Source of the DNA: Mustelus asterias
Taxonomy: Eukaryota
Length of the DNA stretch: 36,520 nucleotides
Direction: 5' to 3'
Assembly: GCF_964213995.1 (NCBI RefSeq)
Contig: NW_027590264.1
Span: 248,001-284,520 of the forward strand
Positions 19,086 to 33,733 of this stretch are shown here, piece after piece. A program made the position numbers and the translations under genes. The notes beneath the pieces were generated by a model. That model saw nothing but the letters and a program-made list of their open reading frames with translations, made no database searches and was not told the DNA's origin. How positions within the stretch are numbered: position 1 is the first letter of the stretch; the number at the start of each line of letters is the position of its first letter.

Positions 19086-21780
19086 AGAGAGTGTGTGAGC
19101 GAGGCAGAGAGTGTGTGTGAGAGACAGAAAGTGTGTGTGTGAGAGACAGAGAGTGTGTGTGAGAGACTGAGAGTGTGTGTGAGACAGAGAGTGTGTGTGT
19201 GAGAGACAGAGAGTGTGTGTGTGAGAGACAGAGAGTGTGTGTGTGAGAGACAGAGAGTGTGTGTGAGCGAGACAGAGAGTGTGTGTGAGCGAGACAGAGT
19301 GTGTGTGAGCGAGACAGAGAGTGTGTGAGAGACAGAGAGTGTGTGAGAGAGAGACAGAGAGTGTGTGTGAGAGAGACAGAGAGTGTGTGTGAGAGACAGA
19401 GAGTGTGTGTGAGAGACAGAGAGTGTGTGAGAGACAGAGAGTGTGTGTGAGCGAGGCAGAGAGTGTGTGAGCGAGGCAGAGAGTGGGTGTGAGAGACAGA
19501 GAGTGTGTGTGAGAGACAGAGAGTGTGTGTGAGAGACAGAGAGTGTGTGTGAGAGACAGAGAGTGTGTGTGAGAGACAGAGAGTGTGTGTGAGAGACAGA
19601 GAGTGTGTGTGAGAGACAGAGAGTGTGTGTGAGAGACAGAGAGTGTGTGTGCGAGACAGAGAGTGTGTGTGAGCGACAGAGAGTGTGTGTGAGCGACAGA
19701 GTGTGTGTGTGAGCGACAGAGAGTGTGTGTGAGCGAGACAGAGTGTGTGTGAGCGAGACAGAGTGTGTGTGAGCGAGACAGAGTGTGTGTGAGCGAGACA
19801 GAGTGTGTGTGAGCGAGACAGAGTGTGTGTGAGCGAGACAGAGTGTGTGTGAGCGAGACAGAGTGTGTGTGAGCGAGACAGAGTGTGTGTGAGCGAGACA
19901 GAGTGTGTGTGAGCGAGACAGAGTGTGTGTGAGCGAGACAGAGTGTGTGTGAGCGAGACAGAGTGTGTGTGAGCGAGACAGAGTGTGTGTGAGCGAGACA
20001 GAGTGTGTGTGAGCGAGACAGAGTGTGTGTGAGCGAGACAGAGTGTGTGTGAGCGAGACAGAGTGTGTGTGAGCGAGACAGAGTGTGTGTGAGCGAGACA
20101 GAGTGTGTGTGAGCGAGACAGAGTGTGTGTGAGCGAGACAGAGTGTGTGTGAGCGAGACAGTGTGTGTGAGCGAGACAGAGTGTGTGTGAGCGAGACAGA
20201 GAGTGTGTGATCGAGACAGAGTGTGTGTGAGCGAGACAGAGTGTGTGTGAGCGAGACAGAGTGTGTGTGAGCGAGACAGAGTGTGTGTGAGCGAGACAGA
20301 GTGTGTGTGAGCGAGACAGAGTGTGTGTGAGCGAGACAGAGTGTGTGTGAGCGAGACAGAGTGTGTGTGAGCGAGACAGAGTGTGTGTGAGCGAGACAGA
20401 GTGTGTGTGAGCGAGACAGAGTGTGTGTGAGCGAGACAGAGTGTGTGTGAGCGAGACAGAGTGTGTGTGAGCGAGACAGAGTGTGTGTGAGCGAGACAGA
20501 GAGTGTGTGAGCGAGACAGAGAGTGTGTGTGAGCGAGACAGAGAGTGTGTGTGAGAGACAGAGAGTGTGTGTGAGCGAGACTGAGAGTGTGTGTGAGAGA
20601 CAGAGAGTGTGTGTGAGAGACAGAGAGTGTGTGTGAGAGACAGAGAGTGTGTGTGAGAGACAGAGAGTGTGTGTGAGAGACAGAGAGTGTGTGTGAGAGA
20701 CAGAGAGTGTGTGTGAGAGACAGAGAGTGTGTGTGAGAGACAGAGAGTGTGTGTGAGAGACAGAGAGTGTGTGAGAGAGACAGAGAGTTTGTGTGAGCGA
20801 GACAGAGAGTGTGCGTGAGAGACATAGAGTGAGTGTGAGAGACAGAGTGTGCGTGAGCGAGACAGAGTGTGTGTGAGAGACAGAGAGTGTGTGTGAGACA
20901 GAGAGTGTGTGTGAGAGACAGAGTGTGTGTGAGAGACAGAGAGTGTGTGTGAGAGAGACAGAGTGTGTGAGCGAGACAGAGAGTGTGTGTGAGCGACAGA
21001 GAGTGTGTGTGAGAGAGACAGAGAGTGTGTGAGCGACAGAGTGTGTGTGAGAGACAGAGAGTGTGTGTGAGCGAGACAGAGAGTGTGTGTGAGAGACAGA
21101 GAGTTTGTGTGAGCGAGACAGAGAGTGTGTGTGAGAGACAGAGAGTGTGTGTGAGAGACAGAGTGTGTGTGAGAGAGACAGAGAGTGTGCGTGAGCGAGA
21201 CAGAGAGTGTGTGAGAGAGACAGAGAGTGTGTGAGAGACAGAGAGTGTGTGAGAGACAGAGTGTGTGAGAGACAGAGTGTGTGAGTGACAGAGTGTGTGA
21301 GAGACAGAGTGTGAGAGACAGAGTGTGTGAGAGACAGAGTGTGTGAGAGACAGAGTGTGTGAGAGACAGAGTGTGTGAGAGACAGAGTGTGTGTGAGCGA
21401 GACAGAGAGTGTGTGTGAGAGAGACAGAGAGTGTGTGAGAGACAGAGAGTGTGTGAGAGAGACAGAGAGTGTGTGTGAGAGACAGAGAGTGTGTGTGAGA
21501 GACAGAGAGTGTGTGTGAGAGACAGAGAGTGTGTGAGAGACAGAGAGTGTGTGAGAGACAGAGAGTGTGTGTGCATGCAAGTGAGTGAATGTGAGTGTGT
21601 GTGAGGGAGTATTCATGTGTGTGTTGATGAGAGTGTGTTAAAGCGAGTGTTTATGAGAGTGAGTGTGTGTGTGAGCAAGTGTGCAAGAGGGAGTGTGTAA
21701 AAGTGAGTATGTGTGTAATGTGTGTGAGACTGAGTAAGTGTACAACAGTGAGTGAGTGCTGGCGGGAGAGTGCAGGAGTG
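19086..21780. repeat. Minisatellite of 20-bp units GAGTGTGTGTGAGCGAGACA / GAGTGTGTGTGAGAGACAGA, degenerating after ~21575
   Basis: Near-perfect 20-bp period at ~19730-20500. Confidence 0.95.
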
Positions 21781-21782
21781 TT

Positions 21783-22079
21783 AAGTTTCAGTTTCATTAC
21801 GAGTGTCACAAGTCGGTTTACATTAACACTGCAATGAAGTTACTGTGAGAATCCCCGAGTCGCCCACACTCCGGTGCCTGTTCGGGTGACACTGAGGGAG
21901 AATTTAGCACGGCCAATGCACCCTAACCAGCACGTCTTTCAGACTGTGGGAGGAAACCGGAGCACCCGGAGGAAACCCACGCAGACACGGGGAGAACGTG
22001 CAGACTCCGCACAGACAGTGACCCAAGCCGGGAATCAAACCCGGGTCCCTGGCGCTGTGAGGCAGCAGTGCTAACCACC
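21783..22079 (-). mobile_element. Nearly full-length tRNA-derived V-SINE with the CACAGTAACTTCATTGCAGTGTTAATGTAA...TTGTGACAC tail (second shark SINE type)
   Basis: Minus-strand head GTGGTTAGCACTGCTGCCTCACAGCGCCAGGGACCCGGGTTTGATTCCCGG and V-domain GGGTTTCCTCCGGGTGCTCCGGTTTCCTCCCACAGTC. Confidence 0.92.
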
Positions 22080-22498
22080 GGTGATCAGGGGGAGAGTTAA
22101 CAGAAAGCAGCTGGTGAGAATATACTGGCCGGTTTTAATTTAATCCAAATTAATGAATTAGAAACTTTTAACCTAAGGAATTGACATCCGAGGATTTCAG
22201 TTTAAAATCCCATTGAACCTCCGTGTCTCATAATGGGATGTTTTTGCCTGTATTTAGTAATTAGTGACTTCATATCTCACAGCGAGATAAATAAAACTTT
22301 TTTCCAATTGACAGGGACAGCTCAATGGACAAAACTGGTGTGAGAAAGGGGCAAATCCTTTGAAAATGGAGGCAGAGAGGAGGCTTTGTTCAACTCCCAT
22401 TCTTTCCCTGTCTTCAGCAGGCTGGGCAGGAAGTGTGAGCAGAGAGGGGGGGATAGACAGACACACACTGACACAATCCCCCCAATCCACTCACTCAC

Positions 22499-22603
22499 AC
22501 ATCCCCATTCCCCCTCCACTCGCTGGGTTGTGGGGAGCGGCTGCAAGGATTTTTGGGGCTGCTGTGCGGGGGTCAGGGGGCTTTTGAAATGGACGAACAC
22601 GAC
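22499..22603 (-). other. Candidate 105-nt minus-strand internal exon (VVFVHFKSPLTPAQQPQKSLQPLPTTQRVEGEWGC in phase 0)
   Basis: Acceptor aactttatttcttttcccccgtag|G and donor TGT|gtgagt. Length is divisible by 3 and two frames are open. Confidence 0.3.
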
Positions 22604-23100
22604 CTACGGGGGAAAAGAAATAAAGTTTGAAACTAAACTAAAGAAACTAAAGGCAGGAGATTGCAGAATCCATTGCCTCCCTGCATTAACATATCAATAG
22701 TCAGTCTGACATTGCCACAAACTCCTCTGGGGTGAGAGGGTGAGAGGGGGAGGGGGGGTGAATTAGCATCTCAATAGAGAGACAGACATTGCAGACATGT
22801 CAGAGACTCAGGGTGGGGTTTGCATCCAGCACACTCAGGATAAATGTGAATCTGAGAGCCTTCAGTCTCCACACCAATAATCCCCCTGCACTGAAAACAT
22901 TCCCACTCTGATTCAGTGTGTGTGTGTGTGTCTCAATCTGCGTTTTTACCTGTGCTTTGCTTGTGTTGACATGATGCTGAATGGACTTGAATGGAAATGC
23001 TGGACTCCTCGCTGTGATATGTTGTGTGTCTTATTGTTAAAATGGCCTTGTCTCTTTTTCTCTCTCTTTTTAACCAATTTTTATCTCTTTTTCTCCTGAG

Positions 23101-23225
23101 GAATTTTGAAAACTGGGGATGTGTCGAGGATCCAAAGGACGGGAATGATTGTGACCAGGATGAGGGAGAGGAGCTTCTTCCAGAGGGAGGGCTGACTGAG
23201 GCCTGTTGCTCAGGCTTCATCCCGA
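23101..23225 (+). other. Candidate exon A0, a diverged paralogue of the 102-nt cassette (NFENWGCVEDPKDGNDCDQDEGEELLPEGGLTEACCSGFIP, phase 2 to 1)
   Basis: Acceptor tctctttttctcctgag|G and donor A|gtgagt. The downstream intron GTGAGTTG..TTTATTA.CCTGATCCAG.TTTAAT matches that of A1, A3 and A4. Confidence 0.45.
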
Positions 23226-23616
23226 GTGAGTTGTGTCTATTTATTAACCTGATCCAGATTTAATGTTTCATATCAGAGGGAGCGAGATCTGAATGAGAGT
23301 GGAATAGAGAGAGAGAGAGAGAAACACACAGGGAGGGAACTGTCTCAATCTCTTTAGTCTCTGCTTTACAACTGACTTGTTGTGTTTGGGTGTTACTGAG
23401 AGATTGTGTAACTGAGGGGAGATCCTGGGTATTTTGCTGTGCTATGTAATTTAAATATTTTCTTGTATTTTAATTATTTTCTCTCTCTTTCCCCAAGAAT
23501 TAATATTTAGATTTTACTGAGAGATTGTGTAACTGAGAAGGGGGAATCCTGGGCTCTTGTGCTATTTAATTTAAAGAATTCTTGTATTTTAATTTATTAT
23601 TTTCTCTTCTCCCCAG

Positions 23617-23718
23617 GAATTTGAATTTTGAAGACTGCAATGTGACTCGGAATCCTTGGACAAGGGGCTTTTCTCCAGAGGAGGATGGATGGACTGAAGC
23701 CTGTTCTATAGGCCGCAT
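23617..23718 (+). other. Candidate exon A1, 102 nt, phase 2/2 (NLNFEDCNVTRNPWTRGFSPEEDGWTEACSIGR)
   Basis: ttttctcttctccccag|GAATT...CGCAT|gtgagt. Only the phase-2 frame is open. Confidence 0.55.
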
Positions 23719-24540
23719 GTGAGTTGTCGTCTCTTTATTACCCTGATCCAGGTTTAATTTTAATCTCGCTTCCTCGGATGAATCAGTTCTGGTTCGATTG
23801 TGGGGTGTGGGGGGGCATCTGGAGTTTGAAACCCTGGGGTTAAAATATCCCGGCTTTGCAGTTAGTCAGAAACAGGTTAACCCTTTGCTGGGTGGCAGAG
23901 AGTAAATTAAATGTCTGTAATATGAAGCTGTCTCAAAGTTAGTTTTAAATCCAAGATAACAGGGATGGGAGACAGAGCGCTGTTCCTAATTGTTGAATAA
24001 AATTCATAGAGGCCTTTATAATTCAGTTTTCAGATGTTCAGACTTTCATTGTGTCCTCTCTGCAGCTTTTCCCCCATTCTGTCTATTTCTCTCTGCTTTC
24101 TCTCTCTCTTTCTCTCCCTTTCCTTCCTCTATCTGTCTCTCTTTTTTATTCCCTCTCTCTCCCTCTTTTTCCCAGGAAGTCATATTTTGTTGGACAATCT
24201 CTCAGTAAAATCTGAGAAGGGGGAATCTTGGGCTCTTGTGCTATTTAATTTAAACATTTTCTGGTATTTTAATATATTTCTCTCTCTTTTACCCAAGAAT
24301 TAATATTTAGATTTTACTGAGAGATTGTGTAACTGAGAAAGGGGAATCCTGGTCTCTTGTGCTATTTGATTTCAACATTTTCTTGTATTTAAATTAATTA
24401 TATTCGATCTCTTCCCAAGGAATTCATATTTAGTTAAACAATCTCTCAGTGAAATCTTAGAAGGGGGAATCCTGGGCTCTTGTGCTATTTAATTTAAACA
24501 TTTTCTTGTACTTTAATTAATTATTTTCTCTTCTCCCCAG

Positions 24541-24642
24541 GAATTTGAATTTTGAAGACTGCAACATGACTCGGAATCCTTGGACAAGGGGCTTTTCTCC
24601 AGAGGAGGATGGATGGACTGAGGCCTGTTCTATAGGCCGCAT
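24541..24642 (+). other. Candidate exon A2, 102 nt, phase 2/2 (NLNFEDCNMTRNPWTRGFSPEEDGWTEACSIGR)
   Basis: Same splice signals and length as A1. Confidence 0.55.
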
Positions 24643-25218
24643 GTGAGTCATCGTCTCTTTATTACAGGGATGGGAGACAGACCGCTGTTCCTAATTGTTG
24701 AATAAAATTCACAGAGGCCTTTACAATTCAGTTTTCAGAAGTTCAAAATTTCATTTCGTCCTCTCTGCAGCTTTTCCCCCATTCTGTCTATTTCCTCTCT
24801 GCTTTCTCTCTCTCCATCCCTTTCCTTCCTCTATCTGTCTCTCTTTTTTATTCCCTCTCTCTCTCCCTCTTTTTCCCAGGAAATAATATTTTGTTGGACA
24901 ATCTGTCAGTAAAATCTGAGAAGGGGGAATCTTGGGCTCTTGTGCTATTTAATTTAAACATTTTCTGGTATTTTAATATATTTCTCTCTCTTTTACCCAA
25001 GAATTAATATTTAGATTTTACTGAGAGATTGTGTAACTGAGAAAGGGGAATCCTGGGCTCTTGTGTATTAAATTTAAACATTTTCTTGTATTTAAATTAA
25101 TTATATTCGATCTCTTCCCAAGGAATTAATATTTAGTTGGACAATCTCTCAGTGAAATCTTAGCTCTTGTGCTAAACATTTTCTTGTATTTTAATTAATT
25201 ATTTTCTCTTCTCCCCAG

Positions 25219-25320
25219 GAATTTGAATTTTGAAGACTGCAATGTGACTCAGAATCCTTGGACAAGGGGCTTTTCTCCAGAGGAGGATGGATGGACTGAG
25301 GCCTGTTCTTTAGGCCGCAA
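25219..25320 (+). other. Candidate exon A3, 102 nt, phase 2/2 (NLNFEDCNVTQNPWTRGFSPEEDGWTEACSLGR)
   Basis: ccccag|GAATT...CGCAA|gtgagt. Confidence 0.55.
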
Positions 25321-25775
25321 GTGAGTTGTCGTCTCTTTATTACCCTGATCCAGGTTTAATTTTAGTCTCGCTTTCTTGGACGAACCAGTTCTGGTTCGAT
25401 TGTGGGATGGGGTGGGGTGGAGTTTAAAACCCTGGGGTTAAAATATCCCGGCTTTGCAATTAGTCACAAACAGGTTAACCCTTTGCTGGGTGGCAAAGAG
25501 TAAATTAAATATCTGTAATATGAAACTGTCTAAAAGTTTGATGCAAATCCAAAATAACAGGGGTGGGAGAGAGTGATTTACCCGAATGTTAAATAAGATT
25601 CACAGAGGACATTACAATTCAATTTTCTGAAGTTCAGCCATTACATTTATCTTCCCCTCTGCAGCTTTCTTCCCCATTCTATTTAGCTCTGCTTTTCTCT
25701 CTGTCTCTCTCTCCAGTATTTTTCCCCTATCTTCAGCTTTCTCTCCCTTCCTGTTTCTTTCCATTCATCTCTCCC

Positions 25776-25983
25776 TCTCGAGCATTCTTCCATATCTGTC
25801 CATCACTCACCAGAATGTCTCTCTCTCCCTCTCGAGCATTCTTCCATATCTGTCTATCACTCTCCAGAATGTCTCTCTCTCGAGCGTTCTTCCATATCTG
25901 TCCATCACTCTCCAGAATGTCTCTCTCCGTCGAGCATTCTTCCATATCTGTCTTTCACTCTCCAGAATGTCTCTCTCTCTCTC
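25776..25983. repeat. Minisatellite, four copies of ~48-54 bp (TCGAGCATTCTTCCATATCTGTCCATCACTCTCCAGAATGTCTCTCTC)
   Basis: Seen directly. Confidence 0.9.
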
Positions 25984-26682
25984 TGGCTCCATCTTCCTTT
26001 GTGTCTCTTTAAACCTTTAATCAACAAAAACTGTGTTATTGTAAACAGGGAGACAGGAATATGGCATCGCTCATTTCAATGCAGAGTACATGAGAGAGAG
26101 GGAAAGAAACAGCTATGGACAGAGACAACGAGTGAGAAAGAGAGGGGACAGGGACAAGGATCTAGACAGGAACATCCATCTTTACACTGAGTGAGAGAGA
26201 CAGGAGCAGAGGGAGAAAAGAGAGGGAGATAGTGAAAGGGAGATGGAGGGAGTTGTAGAAACCAATCCCGGGAGGGCGATTTTAAAAAGTGTCCCGAAGG
26301 AATCAGCAGCCCCTTCCCAAACTGAAAGAGGGAGATGAGCAGCTCCTGGAGTCTGAGAGGGAGACAGGGATGGACTGGGGGGTTGTGGATATTTGAATTC
26401 AGTTTTAGGAGATTCTGTTTGTAGACTTCTCTCTCTCTGTTCATGCCATTCTGATGTTTCTGAGAGATTGTGTAACTGAGAAGGGGGAATCCTGCGTTTC
26501 GGTGAGATTTAATTTCAATGGTTTCTTGTATTTAATTAATTTTCTCTCTCTTTTCCCCAAGAATTCATATCTAGTTAGACAATCTCTCAGTAAAATCTGA
26601 GAAGGGGAATCCTGGGCTCTTGTGCTATTTAATTTAAATATTTTCTTGTATTTTAATTAACTATTTTCTCTCTTCTCCCCAG

Positions 26683-26784
26683 GAATTTGAATTTTGAAGA
26701 CTGCAACGGGACTCGGAATCCTTGGACAAGGGGCTTTTCTCCAGAGGAGGATGGATGGACTGAAGCCTGTTCTATAGGCCGCAT
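26683..26784 (+). other. Candidate exon A4, 102 nt, phase 2/2 (NLNFEDCNGTRNPWTRGFSPEEDGWTEACSIGR)
   Basis: tcttctccccag|GAATT...CGCAT|gtgagt. Confidence 0.55.
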
Positions 26785-27297
26785 GTGAGTTGTTGTCTCT
26801 TTATTATCCTGATCCAGGTTTAATTTTAATCTTGCTTCCTCGGATTCGATTGTGGGGAGGGGGGGCTGGAGTTTGAAACCCTGGGGTTAAAATATCCCGG
26901 CTTTGCAATTAGTCGCAAACACGTTAACCCTTTGGTGGGTGGCAGAGTAAATTATGTATGAAACTGTCTATAAGTTTGCTTTAAATCTAAAATAACAGGG
27001 GTCGGAGACAGAGCAATGAACCTAATTGTTGAATAAAATTCACAGAGGCCTTTACAATTCAGTTAACAGATGTTCAGATTTTCATTTCATCCTCTCCACA
27101 GCTTTTCCCCCATTCTGTCTATTTCTCTCTGCTTTTCTCTCCATTTCCTTCCTCTCTCTGCCTCTCTTTAATCTCTCTCTCTCCCTCTTTTTCCCAGGAA
27201 TTAATATTTAGTTGGACAATCTCTCAGTAAAACCTGGAAAGGGGCAATCCTGGGATTTTGTGCTGTGTAATTTTCATTCTGGGTGTCCCGGGGGGTT

Positions 27298-29170
27298 TGA
27301 TTTCACTGTCTCAGCCCCTCTCTGCCTCACTCTCTCTCTCTCTCTGTATAAACTTTTCCCAAATTACAAAACACTCAACACAGCTGACTGCACCTTGTGG
27401 GATCTTGCTGGGGATTTTGTTTTAAAAAGGGGTGTTTTCTCAGAGGCAGTTTAAACCTTTCAGGGGACTGCGGGGAAGTCTCCAGACTTGGGACAACACA
27501 CACACAGGGTTGGGGGCTGGGGTTGGCGGGCGGGGAGGTGGGCAGTCAGGTATACTGGTATTCTGGGAGACTGATATTCCCAACAAGGGCCAGAGGTCTC
27601 AGTGCTGAAACATATTAAACTGTTCAAACAGAGGCAGGCAGAAAGCCATGAGGCTTCAGAGCTCCCTGTAGATGCAAAGGTAACTCTGTCAAAAAGTAGC
27701 CACATGTGAAGTGGAAACACCTTCCCTCAGCTTGTTACACACTGACCTTTCCACAACCCCAACATGTTTACAAACACTCGCTGCAGTTTCTGCAAACTTT
27801 GTATCAAACTGCCTCCCATTCTGCTCAATACTGACCCCCTCTCAACCTGGCACTGAACTAGTGTCTGAATTGAGACAGAGACACAGACAGAGGTTTTAAA
27901 GTTGAAAGTTTTAAAGTTTGATTATTAGTGTCACAAGTAAGGCTTACATTAACACTGCAATGAAGTTACTGAGAGAGACAGAGACACACAGAGACAGAGA
28001 CATAGATAAAGAGACAGAGAGGATATTTAAAGTTTTAAAGTTTGTTTATTCGTGTCACAAGTAAGGCTTACATTAACGCTGCAGTTACTGAGAGAGACAG
28101 AAAGAGAGAGTTTTTAAAGTTGAAAGATTTAAAGTTTATTTCTTAGTGTCACAAGGCTTACATTAACACTGCAATGAAGTTAGTGAGAAAGACAGAGATA
28201 GAGGGAGCATCCAGAGTGGGTTCAGTAACACATTTATTGATCAGATATCTCTCTCTGTGACTCTTTAGCGATGAGATATTCAGCCAGGATGGTTTCACTG
28301 ACCCTCTTCAGCAGGCAGATATTCCCAAATCCAGCCCAGGTCTCAGACACACACACCACTCACACATTCCCTCTGCTCTGTCCAAGGGAATATTTTAATC
28401 CAGGAATTTCTATTTTATATTTACAGGGTGAGGGGGGGGAGAAACTCAACTCAAAAATCCTGCAGTCTCTCCAAGCTGCTTTTAAATTTCAATTCAAACC
28501 CTGGGCCACATGGGAAGCTGCAGAGATTGGGAAACTTACCAAACCCAGTTTGTGTGTGTGAGTGTCTGCAGCTTTTGTGTCTTTGAACTTGCGAGGGTGC
28601 CAGGGAGAGAATGTCACTGTCTTCACCTCTCTCTCTGCCTCTCTGTATAAAAATAATCACCAAATTAAACCACACTCAATAATGCGACCATACACAATTA
28701 ATTATCAAATATCTGTCTCTCTCGCTTTATCTCTGTCTCTCCCCGTCTCTCTCTCTCCCTGTCCTCTCTCTCCCTGTCTCTTCTCGAGCAGAAACAGATG
28801 GAGACAGAGAGGGAGAGAGAGGGAGGAAGAGGGAGGGATGGAAACAGCTGGAGTTGTGGGTTAGATGCAGGGGGAGAGACACAGGCTGTTGGAGGGAGGG
28901 GGGGTTTCAGTGAGGGACAGGGTCTCCAGTTTAATTCTGAGGGTCCTGAGAGAGGGATTTCACTGTCTCAGCCCCTCTCTGGCTCCCTCACTCTGTATAA
29001 ACAATTCTCAAATTAAAAAACGCTCAACACAGCTGACTGCACTTTGTGGGATCTTGCTGTGCACCACAGGGATTTTAGTTTTAAAAAGGGTTACTTTTAA
29101 GAGGGAGTTCCAGCCTTTCTGGAGATTTGGGATGATGCAGACACACACACACACACACACACAGGGTAGT
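27298..29170 (+). repeat. Dispersed duplicated block with TATAAA (27298-27510, 28613-28680 partial, 28958-29170)
   Basis: TTTCACTGTCTCAGCCCCTCTCTG...CTCTGTATAAA...CTCAACACAGCTGACTGCAC.TTGTGGGATCTTGCTG is shared. Confidence 0.85.
27894..28185 (-). mobile_element. Three tandem copies of a SINE 3'-tail fragment (same tail as 21783)
   Basis: AAAGTTT..TT..TAGTGTCACAAGTAAGGCTTACATTAACACTGCAATGAAGTTACTG at 27894-27971, 28027-28091 and 28112-28185. Confidence 0.88.
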
Positions 29171-29409
29171 GAGTGGGGAAGGGGGCTCACAGCAGGCAAG
29201 AGAGTGGGGAACGGGTGGGGGAAGGACTGTGTCCCATCTGATTCAGGTTCACATTGCTGCTGCTACTGTGGGATCTTGCTGTGCACACACTGGGCCTGTG
29301 GCCTTTGCCTGCACAGCAACAGCGCCCACACTTTTTATTTTCAAACAAAGTCTGGCTCAGGGACCGCAAAGTGGGTTCAAGGAAAAAGCTTGAAAAGGGG
29401 TCGGGTAAA

Positions 29410-29543
29410 TTCAAGCACTTTAATCGCCAAGGCATCGTAGGCTCTGGAGCAAGTGCTGGGGAATGGGAGGAGGATAGATTGGGATTTGATGGCCAGCATG
29501 GAGCTGGTGGGCCGAAGGGCCTGTTTCTGTGCTGTGTGACTCC
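29410..29543 (+). mobile_element. Old CR1 3'-end fragment
   Basis: GGCCAGCATGGA..TGGTGGGCCGAAGGGCCTGTTTCTGTGCTGT. Confidence 0.75.
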
Positions 29544-30201
29544 AGATTCTTTTCTCTCTCTCTTTTCCCAGGAATTTCTATTTGGATGGGGGGGGGGGGT
29601 ATAGAATTTCTCTGTCTCTCCAGTGTTCTTACCAATCCCAGCACCCCTCCCCTCCCCTCTCTCTCTCCCCAGACATTCCTGTCTATATTTCATCTTTCAA
29701 TAAAATGTTTAAGAAAACACCAATGTGAATTGTTGTCAATTTAATTTGGGAAGAGAGAGAGAGAGAGAGGAGTGGATCCCATTTCCCACACACTCTCCTG
29801 CAGTCCTCACCCACAACATTTATTTAATCTGGCCCTCACCAGGTTGTGTGTGTGGGATCTTGCTGTGCACACAGGTGGGTCTGGCTCCCTATTCCTCGCA
29901 CTGTGACCGTGAGCAGAACTTTAAACAGGAAAGATTGAGGGGAAGGAGAAGGGTTGGGGAGGCGGAGGAGGCAGAGAGAGAGAGATAGAGAAATGGAGGG
30001 AGAGCTAAACAGAGAGGGGGTGGGGGAGGTGTGAGAGGGTCTCAGGAGGGGCAGGGGGAAAGAGACACAGTCTGGGGGTGTCCTCCTCCACTGTGGGACT
30101 GGCAGTGGGATCTTGCTGTGCAGAATTACCTTCATTGTCATTTGAATCATTCATTCATTGACTAAGGGAGGGTGGGTGTGTGATTGTGGGATTATAAATA
30201 T

Positions 30202-31251
30202 TGTTACCACTCTGAGGTGATGTTTCCCTCTGCGCTATTTTGTAACCCCCTAAAGGGATACACCTCGCCTCGTAATCTTAAATAAGTGTGTGTGAGACAG
30301 GAGGAAGCGACTGGTTTTAGACATTCAATCCCTACAGTGCAGAAGGAGGTCATTCGGCCCATCTAGTCTGTACCGACCACAATCCCACCCAGGCCCTATT
30401 CCCGTAACCCCACACTTTTAACCTGCTAATCCCCCTGACACTGGGGTCAATTTAACACGGCCAATCCACCGAACCCGCACAGCTTTGGACTGTGGGAGAA
30501 ATTGGTAAATTAAAGCAAGATCTGACACTCTCTCCATCAGGAACAACCAAACAGGTCTTTAATTTAGACTGGGTGACAACCTTATTAAAACAATGAACAA
30601 ACTGAATAAACTCCCCAGTAGAATGCTGTTCCAAGGACAAGACTCACTCAGGAATAATGAAATAAATCATTACAGAATAGAGTCACCCTCGAATAACCAG
30701 GCGTCTGTTGGAAGTGTGAACTTGCTTCTGCTGCTTGGGTCTGGAATACTTTCTGAGTTGGTTTCTGCTTCTATTTAGATGGTGATGTGATGAAGCTGTA
30801 TATATTACTGCAGGATTCAGTATCAGACTCTCCCCCCTTCAATCTAAAGAGGCAGCAAGGTCGCTCCCTCCCCGTTATTTCCCCCTGTCCCGGGTTTAAA
30901 TACCCAGAATTTCCTCACAGTATTCCTGCAATTTGAGTGGCTTGAGGCTGTCACCAACGCCCCAATTTGAATGCAATTGGTTGTGTGCGTTTGAGAGCTT
31001 GTTTTAAAATCATTGGTCCAGTTCAAAGCCTGTTTTGCTCTGCTGGGACTCTGGCTGCTGCTTTGGACACAAATGTTGTAAAGTTGTGTTCTGCAGCCTG
31101 CTTTCTGCAGTTTAAAATCCCCAGCACAGAGACACAGGCTTTCTAAAGACACAACGCTGGATGGTTCGTTTTGGTTTTCTCAGCATTTCTTTTCAATATT
31201 TACATTTGTCAAACACCACATTTTTAACCTGATATACGCAACTTCATAACA
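30202..31251 (-). mobile_element. Solo LTR (Ty3/Gypsy- or ERV-like) with TGTTA...TAACA termini and 4-bp TSD ATAT
   Basis: TGTTACC starts at 30202 and CATAACA ends at 31251. ATAT occurs at 30198-30201 and 31252-31255. The minus strand has CCAAT boxes (~31015, ~30978), TATTTAAA (~30903-30896) and ATTAAA (~30563-30558). Confidence 0.75.
30322..30498 (-). mobile_element. HE1-type SINE fragment nested in the solo LTR
   Basis: CCCTACAGTGCAGAAGGAGGTCATTCGGCCCATC...GGCCAATCCACC..ACCCGCACA.CTTTGGACTGTGGGAG. Confidence 0.88.
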
Positions 31252-31341
31252 ATATTAGACAGGGAGAGAGAGATCGGGAGAGACAGAGAGAAAGTCACAC
31301 AAAGAGAGAGAGAGACAGGGAGACAGAGAGAGAGAGAGAGT

Positions 31342-31443
31342 CACATGGAGTAATGAGGATGGGGCCTGGATGGGAATGTGGTTGGTGTAGACCTGATGGG
31401 CCGAATGGCCTCCTTCTGTACTGTAGGATTCTGTGATTCTGTA
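31342..31443 (+). mobile_element. HE1-type SINE 3' tail
   Basis: GATGGGCCGAATGGCCTCCTTCTGTACTGTAGGATTCTGTGATTCTGT. Confidence 0.82.
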
Positions 31444-31614
31444 ATGGGGGCTGCGTGCGGTGTGAGGGGAGGGTGGAAGGGGACAGGGGGTGGGGGCAGC
31501 ACTGGTTCCCTTTTCCCCCCTCCCTCCTCCCAGGCCCTGTCCGGGAGGTTTCGGGGCTGGAGGGGATTGTTCTGGTGAACTGGCCGGGGCCTGGGGAACC
31601 TGTTCTTTGTCCAG

Positions 31615-31760
31615 GATGTATAATGCAGCCTCTGTGACCAGGCCTCAATCCCAGGCCTAACCTCAGGAAGGCTTTTGCATTTTGCTCCTTTTCCAAACAG
31701 TGCCTGTGTTTAAATCGATGGGACTCGACGGTCGAATAAAACCTGCAGCAGTCACTTTAA
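31615..31760 (+). other. Candidate terminal exon B1 (phase 2: MYNAASVTRPQSQA*, AATAAA 31735-31740)
   Basis: Acceptor cctgttctttgtccag|G, stop 31658-31660, polyA signal. Paralogous to B2. Confidence 0.35.
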
Positions 31761-31761
31761 T

Positions 31762-32217
31762 ACAAAGAACAGCACAGCACAGGAACAGGTCCTTTGGCCC
31801 TCCAAGCCTGCGCCGATCATGTTTACCTATCGAGACCAATGGCCTGTATCCCTCTCTACCCCGTTTGTTCATGTGTCTATCCAGATAAGTCTTAAATGTC
31901 ACTAATGTATCTGCCCCAACCACCTCACTTGGCAGCGCATTCCAGGCCCCCACCACCCTCTGTGTAAAAACCTTCCCCGCACATCTCCACTCAACCTTTC
32001 CCCCCTTATCTTGAACTTGTTCCCCCTTGTAATTATCATTTCTGTCCTGGGAAAAAGCTCCCAACTGTTTATCCTCGCCACACCCCTCATAATTTTATAA
32101 ACTTCCAGCTGGTCGTCCCTCAGCCTCCGTCTTTCCAGGGAGAACAATCCCAGTTTATTCAATCAATCCTCACAGCCAATACCCTCCATACCAGGCAACA
32201 TCCTGGTCAACCCTTTC
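31762..32217 (-). mobile_element. 5'-truncated CR1 LINE 3' fragment
   Basis: Minus-strand ORFs LGLFSLERRRLRDD and FTQRVVGAWNALP, with a CTGTGCTGTGCTGTTCTTTGT tail. Confidence 0.92.
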
Positions 32218-32479
32218 ATTGGATTTGGGATGTGATTGTGGGTTTTCCTGCTATATCTCTTTCTCTTCAATCTTTCTCCCGTGATTGTGAGTTATCAGGG
32301 AGGGAGAGAGAGAGAGAGAGAGAAAGGGATGGTAACAGAGAGAGAGGGAGAGAGGGCAAAGGCAGAGGGGCAGGGAGAGGAGAGAGATTGGAGGGGAGTG
32401 GGTTAGAGGGGGGCGGGGGGGGGGGGGAGCCTCCGCTGTGCACTCACAGCCCAGCAGCTCCCCAGTCTCTGGTTCGGTG

Positions 32480-32603
32480 CATTAACCCACTCTGGTGCAT
32501 TAACAGGCGCCAGAGTGTGGCGACTAGGAGAATTTCACAGTAACTTCATTGCAGTGTTAATGTAAGCCTTACTTGTGACTAAGAAATAAACTTTACTTTA
32601 CTC
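32480..32603 (+). mobile_element. V-SINE 3' fragment (same family as 21783)
   Basis: AACAGGCGCCAGAGTGTGGCGACTAGG..ATTTCACAGTAACTTCATTGCAGTGTTAATGTAAGCCTTACTTGTGACT..AAATAAACTTTACTTTAC. Confidence 0.88.
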
Positions 32604-33733
32604 TGAGATAAAGACCCTCACTCACAGCCTCCCAGAAGGTGGGATTTAGAAACAGCGACTGTGTAACTGAGGCTGAATCTGTGCTGTTGTGTTTGAAAAT
32701 ACATTGCAGTGAGAGAGAGATCTGGCTTTGCAGGAGGAGCTTCCCTCCCCATTTCCCCACGGAAATCACTGAGAAATAGCAAGCGTGGCCCACAACACGT
32801 CATTATTTGAAACGGTCAGACAGAAACTTATCAGAGAGAGCATTTTAATCCCCATTCATCCCCAGACGGAGAAACAGAGCAGAGATCAGGACAGATTATC
32901 CAGAGTAGGAGAGACCGGGGCAGAGATGGGGTTTGGATATATATAGATCTGGGGGGAAAGCAAAAGAGACACAGAGGGGGCTGGACAGGTTCAGAGATAG
33001 AGGCAGAGAAACAGGCAGAGAGAAAGAAACAGCGAGAGACAGAGGGAATGGGAGAGGTGTGACTGTGCTCGAAGTGGAAGGTTCCCTGTTCATATTGAAT
33101 GTACAAACAGCCCCAATCCTGGAGTGACTTGTCATTATTTTTATTTGGGGTGGGGGAAGAGATGGAGGGGGGGAGCAAGGGAGAGAGAGGGAGAAGTGTG
33201 GTTCCCTCATTGCCCACTCACTTTAGCCCAATCCTCACTTAAAAATCACTTTGTATCTGGCCCTGCCCAGACTGTGTGTGTGGGATCTTGCTGTGCCCTC
33301 CTCCCCGCCCCATATTCCCTGCACTGTGACAGCGCCCCACACTTTAAACATGAAAAGATGGAGAGGAAGGAGGGTGGGGTAGAGAGAGAGGAACAGAGAA
33401 TGGGTGGGGAGTGTGGGGGGGCTCAGGGGAGGGGGGGTAGGGGGATAGAGACAGAGTCTCTGGGGGTGGGGGGTGTCCTCCTGCAGTGTGGGACTCCCTG
33501 TGGGATCCTGATTGCAGCATTCCCAGTCTCTCTCTCTCTCTCACTGTGAAGCACTCGGGAGGGAGAGGGAGCTGAAATTCAAATTCCTGAGCCTGGGGGA
33601 AAGGCTTGTTCTCAATCCCAGAGTCCTGCTTGTGTTTTTAGACAGGGCGCTGGGATTTGTGGGTGTGGATGGAGAAGATTGTTCTGTTTAACTGGGGGGT
33701 GGGAGAGAGGGGGGTTTGTTCTTTCTACCTGAG

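What the first reader, a model, noticed from the sequence alone, without database searches (positions are those of the whole stretch)
23617..26784. Array of four symmetric 102-nt exon cassettes encoding an unrecognised 34-aa two-Cys repeat
Seen: four copies, each exactly 102 nt with YnCAG|G and |GTGAGT sites, and only the phase-2 frame open. They have no indels, while the flanking copies carry many (e.g. a ~290-bp deletion at ~24665). Spliced in series they give (M/K)NLNFEDCN[V/M/G]T[R/Q]NPWTRGFSPEEDGWTEACS[I/L]GR, where an N-x-T sequon is kept while x varies. Inference: a variable-copy or alternatively spliced repeat module of an unknown, possibly extracellular, protein. Repeated exons of a lncRNA are equally possible.
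Basis: partly seen in the sequence, partly recalled or inferred. Interest (0 to 1): 0.7.

Follow-up and report, generated by a model that had tools for sequence, protein, structure and literature searches.

The report
Repeated exons in amplified shark transcript
These four short look-alike exons belong to a roughly 20-kb block copied an estimated 400 times in this shark genome; a fossil reverse-transcribed copy shows that such exons were spliced, but their mutations ignore the reading frame, so they are likely passengers in a non-coding transcript rather than a new repeat protein.

Summary
The four 102-nt cassettes are real and have strong splice sites. They are not local: a 29-mer occurs 1,252 times in the genome, giving about 1,400 cassettes in about 390 arrays. 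The arrays sit in a ~20-kb block that recurs at 88-99% identity, mostly on satellite-rich small scaffolds. Splicing is shown indirectly. A processed insertion on C6 joins a cassette end to a cassette start exactly at the predicted sites. A processed copy on C8 joins the related 125-nt exon to a beta-mannosidase exon fragment and further exons. Coding is not supported. In 163 full-length cassettes there are 37 non-synonymous and 7 synonymous distinct variants (neutral expectation 32:10). One subfamily carries a frameshift, 11 of 65 sampled blocks lack the array, and no homologue was found. Left open: no stop variants, few exonic indels, and a modelled 149-158-aa ORF. No RNA data were available. 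Best reading: an amplified, mosaic, likely non-coding transcription unit that works like a primate core duplicon. The C6 insert is one 102-nt circular permutation, possibly from a back-spliced circle. The scan's notes showed no earlier report of this family.

The parts
12401..12597 (+). Upstream exon U; donor CAAG|GTAAAG, start inferred, stops in all three frames. It lies in a block repeated many times upstream between 69-bp satellite arrays.
   Evidence: Processed copy L102 joins 12407-12597 to the 125-nt exon, 3-4 nt short at the junction. Frames. Repetition.
21703..36520 (+). Left part of the amplified ~20-kb block; it continues about 5.7 kb beyond the window end.
   Evidence: Recurs at 88-99% on C232, C391, C815, C45, C51 and others.
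23101..23225 (+). 125-nt diverged homologue of the cassette (phase 2 in, phase 1 out); 111-, 123- and 126-nt variants exist elsewhere.
   Evidence: Its type is spliced in processed copy L104.
23393..23621 (+). ~120-bp tandem repeat made of duplicated acceptor regions; similar runs precede cassettes 2-4.
23617..23718 (+). Cassette exon 1 (102 nt)
24541..24642 (+). Cassette exon 2 (102 nt); ~219-nt deletion 23 nt downstream
25219..25320 (+). Cassette exon 3 (102 nt)
26683..26784 (+). Cassette exon 4 (102 nt)
34456..34624 (+). Diverged homologue with a good acceptor, open in the cassette frame for 55 codons, AATAAA at 34550; candidate terminal exon (inferred, no junction found).
35726..36108 (+). 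Segment carried in the same C6 insertion as the spliced cassette piece, so likely part of a family RNA.
   Evidence: 94% over 386 nt

Best explanation
The cassettes are spliceable exons of a multi-exon unit that recurs an estimated 400 times in this genome, and they are likely neutral passengers of a non-coding transcript rather than a protein repeat. Shown: the block is young and high-copy; arrays hold 2-6 cassette pieces or none; a processed copy carries the cassette-to-cassette junction; variation ignores the codon frame. Inferred: an ancestral exon (125-nt type) was duplicated with its acceptor and donor, and unequal exchange or gene conversion among tandem copies changes cassette number and keeps copies similar. 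The whole block spreads by segmental duplication among satellite-rich scaffolds. Family RNAs were made in the germ line, because retrocopies were inherited, and they splice to whatever exons lie near. The frame-symmetric length and open frame would be mostly chance or inherited relic.
For: 1,252 exact 29-mer matches, about 1,425 cassettes in about 390 arrays by scaling. Block-wide identity of 96-99% per unit, with intronic and LINE parts as conserved as the cassettes. Substitution distance in exon 0.041-0.044 against 0.043-0.052 just downstream. 37 N: 7 S against an expected 32.4: 9.8, p=0.37; 125-nt exon 7 N: 3 S against 7.2: 2.3. Of 197 cassette pieces in 65 loci, 162 are intact, 14 frameshifted, 20 truncated (two copies split by an insertion) and 1 lacks AG; 38 of 54 arrays are fully intact; 11 of 65 loci have no cassette, with a clean deletion seen in the loci whose output I could read. 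Donor GT>AT in 3 further loci. Exon U is closed in all frames and the 125-nt exon leaves the cassette frame. Splice junction in L122 and a four-junction processed copy L104.
Against: No stop among 44 variants (1.7 expected, P=0.17), and none among 15 in the other two exons. Only 1 small indel type in the exon against 17 downstream and 23 upstream gap signatures in 177 copies, although many of those are alignment artefacts or homopolymer slips. Splicing cassettes to the 34456 exon gives a modelled ORF of 149-158 aa. All 5 exact-pattern acceptor mutants in the genome are in the decayed family B, which hints at constraint on family A splice sites. The cassette-to-cassette junction rests on one retrocopy.
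Confidence: 0.6

Rival explanations
1. A young multi-copy protein family. A start codon inside cassette 2, or one created at a cassette junction, would open a ~150-aa protein of 34-aa repeats ending in the 34456 exon, evolving under relaxed or diversifying selection.
For: Modelled ORFs of 158 and 149 aa. No stop variants and few exonic indels. 38 of 54 arrays are fully intact. 8 of 44 variants fall in one codon.
Against: No deficit of amino-acid changes. Frameshifted, truncated and array-less subfamilies were amplified too. Upstream exons carry short closed ORFs. AATAAA lies before the stop. No homologue found. The variable codon sits in an imperfect palindrome that could be a mutation hotspot (inference).
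Confidence: 0.17
2. A functional long non-coding RNA in which the repeated exon is a protein-binding or localisation module, as the RRD exons are in FIRRE.
For: The repeat is a spliced exon with well-kept sites (GT 163 of 163, AG 162 of 163 among full-length copies). Within the window's array, divergence rises away from the exon.
Against: Across the family the exon is hardly more conserved than its flanks. One subfamily lost the array. No Rfam match reaches a gathering score.
Confidence: 0.13
3. A dead relic: the exons were spliced only in an ancestral copy, and today's copies are silent parts of a macro-satellite.
For: The retrocopies are 5-12% diverged from present copies, older than most of the amplification. 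No promoter was identified.
Against: Splice sites stay intact in nearly all family A copies, whereas family B lost its donor and gained a stop.
Confidence: 0.1

Closest known systems
Primate core duplicons, e.g. LCR16a/NPIP (PMC7419210, passages read)
   Same: A ~20-kb transcribed block that recurs in many mosaic duplications, turns over whole exons and forms fusion transcripts with neighbouring duplicated gene pieces (here a beta-mannosidase exon).
   Different: NPIP keeps an ORF and shows positive selection. Here no ORF is shown to be used, copy number is in the hundreds, and the setting is satellite-rich scaffolds. No sequence relation was tested or is claimed.
FIRRE lncRNA with its exonic RRD repeat (PMC4820808, passages read)
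   Same: One short exon type repeated within a spliced, apparently non-coding transcript.
   Different: RRD is a local repeat of a single conserved locus with shown hnRNPU binding and nuclear retention. This cassette is in about 390 loci, is dispensable in one subfamily, and has no shown function.
circRNA-derived pseudogenes (PMC4897178, part 1 of 2 of the text read)
   Same: L122 carries an exon-end to exon-start junction and spans one circular permutation of the exon.
   Different: Because the exon is tandemly repeated, ordinary linear splicing gives the same junction, so the diagnostic non-colinear order cannot be established.
NBPF/Olduvai (DUF1220) exon arrays (recalled, not read)
   Same: Variable-number arrays of frame-symmetric exon units inside duplicated genes.
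   Different: Those encode a recognised Pfam domain; this peptide has no Pfam match and no sign of selection.

Membership tests
Spliced internal exon | Canonical AG/GT sites with a pyrimidine tract | tested here: met
Spliced internal exon | Junction seen in RNA or in an RNA-derived copy | tested here: met
   One retrocopy junction for the 102-nt cassette; not seen in RNA reads
Protein-coding repeat exon | Purifying selection on the frame (dN/dS below 1) | tested here: not met
   37 N: 7 S, expected 32.4: 9.8
Protein-coding repeat exon | Continuous ORF from upstream exons | tested here: not met
   Exon U is closed in all frames and the 125-nt exon shifts the frame; only an internally started ORF remains
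Protein-coding repeat exon | Depletion of stops and frameshifts | tested here: inconclusive
   0 stops (P=0.17); 1 small indel type, present in 14 copies
Protein-coding repeat exon | Translation (Ribo-seq, peptides) | not testable with these tools
   No such data offered
Core-duplicon-like transcribed duplication | One block shared by many duplications with differing neighbours | tested here: met
Core-duplicon-like transcribed duplication | Transcribed, with fusion transcripts | tested here: inconclusive
   Shown only by old processed copies; present expression unknown
Core-duplicon-like transcribed duplication | Encodes a positively selected gene family | tested here: not met
   omega ~1.6, not different from neutral
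FIRRE-like lncRNA repeat module | Repeat confined to one locus | tested here: not met
   1,252 exact matches across many contigs
FIRRE-like lncRNA repeat module | Protein binding or nuclear retention | not testable with these tools
   Needs experiments
miRNA/snoRNA host array | Known small RNA in the repeated introns | tested here: not met
   No Rfam hit at a gathering score; weak miRNA hits fall mostly on a CT/GA simple repeat at ~28740 and none in the array
circRNA-derived pseudogene (L122) | Non-colinear junction that linear splicing cannot give | tested here: inconclusive
   Insert is 99-102 nt, one period. The best matches are last-in-array cassettes, and 7 of 7 cassettes ending in C have no downstream cassette; tandem exons still allow a linear origin.

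The most novel reading that the evidence does not exclude
A shark lineage has built a family of about 400 genes for a new ~150-aa protein of variable 34-aa repeats, started inside the repeated exons and evolving without purifying selection: a cartilaginous-fish counterpart of NPIP/NBPF whose 102-nt exon also back-splices into circles that get retrocopied.
Probability: 0.15. Interest if true: 0.7.

Novelty: new member of a known kind. Interest (0 to 1): 0.36.

Why it matters
If the best reading holds, this is an undescribed, very high-copy, spliced duplication core in a shark. It would account for several megabases of hard-to-assemble scaffolds, sits next to the T-cell-receptor V cluster on this contig, and makes chimeric transcripts from gene fragments. 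It also shows that a tidy frame-symmetric exon array can arise without protein selection, and that retrocopies can stand in for missing RNA-seq. If it is translated, it would be a large de novo repeat-protein family.

Tried and rejected
Protein searches. Pfam: 0 families for 5 peptides. Word-based searches: nothing at E<=10 for the cassette, the 125-nt exon or alignment A1 (only proteins longer than about 73 aa were searched, so this is weak). ESM Atlas: no usable hit. PDB: one hit at E=1, taken as chance. The single HMMER hit P0001 (E 1e-29) is a singleton eel 'hypothetical protein' of 17 near-identical repeats at 33% identity; its E-value is summed over the repeats, so it was rejected.

Expression. 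No RNA holder listed. Contigs of 4 of the 6 listed runs laid on 23060-23800 cross exon-intron borders and show no splice joint; the runs look like DNA, so this is no evidence either way.

Junction patterns. One true cassette junction among 3 matches (control 1). None for the 125-nt exon to a cassette and none into the 34456 exon.

Other. Rfam negative. The parent locus of processed copy L104 was not found: no 125-nt exon in 110 kb around the C1 mannosidase-like exon or in the stretches read on C539, C193 and C257. Paper searches (listings only) showed no description of this family; some searches were for analogues. Supplements were not read. The deletion-length script failed; the 219 nt comes.

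Full report
Observation. The four cassettes lie at 23617-23718, 24541-24642, 25219-25320 and 26683-26784. Each is 102 nt, flanked by CCCCAG and GTGAGT, with only the phase-2 frame open. They differ by 2-6% and have no gaps; flanks differ by 2-26% and have several. The deletion behind copy 2 is about 219 nt. A given frame is open in 11% of shuffles and some frame in 32%, so the open frame alone is weak.

Context. The window is G000:C232:248001-284520 in a 3.68-Gb genome. Upstream lie 69-bp and simple-sequence satellites alternating with a repeated block. About 8 kb beyond the window begin ORFs that look like T-cell-receptor V segments (label recalled, in line with note e1-9552764).

Family size. 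The cassette search had 1,585 candidates, and one 29-mer has 1,252 exact matches. In my sample 173 of 197 cassette pieces carry that 29-mer, which scales to about 1,425 cassettes in about 390 arrays. The sample was partly chosen by that 29-mer, and uncollapsed haplotypes could inflate the number. The block from 21703 to about 5.7 kb past the window end recurs at 88-99% in local alignments on C232, C391 (two copies 57 kb apart), C815, C45 and C51. Per-unit substitution distance is 1-5%, and many intronic or LINE-derived stretches are more alike than the cassettes are. Older relatives exist. Family B (158 exact matches of one motif) has lost the donor in all 12 loci read and has a stop at the first Cys codon in 11 of them. 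A copy on C22 is 83% identical and has no array in the 3 kb read.

Variation among copies. I examined 65 loci: 40 found through the cassette and 25 through the 125-nt exon. 54 hold arrays of 2-6 pieces and 11 (all among the 25) hold none; in the loci whose output was visible a deletion removes window 23579-27692. Of 197 pieces, 162 are intact, 14 carry a 2-nt deletion, 18 lack the 5' end, 2 lack the 3' end (two copies split by an insertion) and 1 lacks the AG; 38 of 54 arrays are wholly intact. Among 163 full-length copies (59 haplotypes; the 34 others were left out of this count) there are 44 distinct variants: 37 non-synonymous, 7 synonymous, 0 stops, against 32.4, 9.8 and 1.7 expected (p=0.37). 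Both cysteines are hit once. The 125-nt exon gives 7:3:0 in 64 copies and the 34456 exon 3:2:0 in 17 copies, with one 8-nt deletion. Substitution distances are about equal in exon and near flanks. Against my reading, the exon shows 1 indel type against 17 and 23 gap signatures in equal-length flanks; many of those are artefacts or homopolymer slips, but a deficit probably remains. The copies are related, so these counts are not independent events.

Evidence of splicing. A gapped pattern found 3 places (control 1), one of them real. L122 on C6 joins cassette position 102 directly to position 1, and it is the only match in the genome to a cassette-end pattern without T at donor +2. The insert interrupts an old LINE. 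It consists of a LINE 3' tail, window 36108-35726 inverted (94%), and cassette positions 19-102 followed by 1-18, with 5 differences from the nearest copies. This looks like a LINE-made chimeric retrocopy with a 5' inversion (mechanism recalled). The cassette part is one circular permutation, 99-102 nt allowing for target overlap. The two nearest copies are last-in-array cassettes carrying both end variants, and 7 of 7 C-ending cassettes have no downstream neighbour. A back-spliced circle is therefore possible (my estimate about 1 in 3), but one linear RNA explains both pieces more simply. L104 on C8 joins a 125-nt-type exon to a 95-nt exon, two more exons and a further segment; the genomic relatives of the three exons are bounded by AG and G(G)T. 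The 95-nt exon is a beta-mannosidase fragment (E 2.5e-8). L102 on C1 joins window 12407-12597 to the 125-nt exon between inverted repeats that I recall as Penelope ends; the junction is 3-4 nt short and the intron start resembles the exon start, so it is only suggestive. No RNA run was available.

Coding potential. Exon U has stops in all frames, and the 125-nt exon hands the cassettes a closed frame. In spliced models the longest ORFs are 158 aa from an ATG formed at the first cassette junction and 149 aa from the ATG in cassette 2, both running into the 34456 exon. No junction into that exon was found. No homologue was found in Pfam, the protein collections, the Atlas or the PDB; the one strong hit was an artefact of summed repeats. 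Rfam gave nothing at a gathering score.

How it likely works. An exon with strong splice sites was duplicated in tandem inside a transcription unit. Exchange among the tandem copies would vary their number and keep them alike, and the whole unit was then spread by segmental duplication through satellite-rich regions. Family RNAs were spliced in the germ line, at least in the past, and sometimes joined captured gene fragments. Shown: copy number, array variation, neutral pattern and processed junctions. Inferred: the exchange mechanism, germ-line expression and the absence of translation. It works like a primate core duplicon (PMC7419210, passages) and resembles FIRRE in having one repeated exon (PMC4820808, passages). 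It is a member of neither family: it fails the positive-selection and single-locus tests. circRNA-derived pseudogenes are known (PMC4897178, part 1 of 2). Two paper searches (listings only) and four answered look-ups in the scan's notes showed no account of this family, which is weak evidence of novelty.

Verdict. Observation confirmed, splicing supported, protein unsupported but not excluded. Best explanation 0.6, coding 0.17, functional lncRNA module 0.13, silent relic 0.1. Interest 0.36.

Noticed in passing
L122 (G000:C6:99.177-99.178 Mb): LINE-tailed chimeric retrocopy holding one circular permutation of the 102-nt exon; candidate circRNA-derived insertion.
   Followed up: partly
L102 1153-1690 (G000:C1:6.588 Mb): Two-exon fragment of the family RNA between ~85-bp inverted repeats that I recall as Penelope-like ends; possible Penelope-mediated capture of a host transcript.
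   Followed up: partly
L104 (G000:C8:98.19 Mb); L184-L186: Processed chimeric transcript with a beta-mannosidase exon fragment; that exon has at least three duplicated copies (C1, C3571, C539), one with stops.
   Followed up: partly
L021 2512-2750, minus strand (G000:C232 ~287 kb): TATA-like box, a short first exon with GTAAG donors and a 92-nt second exon pointing into the window; part of the same amplified block, a possible antisense unit.
   Followed up: no
G000:C232:292600-384500 (L021-L030): Dense cluster of TCR alpha/delta-like V segments on both strands, with a zinc-finger ORF and a GPR139-like ORF (labels recalled), starting about 8 kb past the window.
   Followed up: no
window 23708-23710 (cassette positions 92-94): 8 of 44 family variants fall in this one codon, at the top of an imperfect palindrome; mutation hotspot or diversifying site.
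   Followed up: no
family B, L050-L061 and the list: Decayed single cassettes without donor; many lie within ~10 kb of a contig start on the + strand, next to a ~28-bp tandem repeat in L050.
   Followed up: partly
window 1-21600: Alternating 69-bp satellite and (GT)n(GA)n arrays that separate repeated copies of the block carrying exon U.
   Followed up: no
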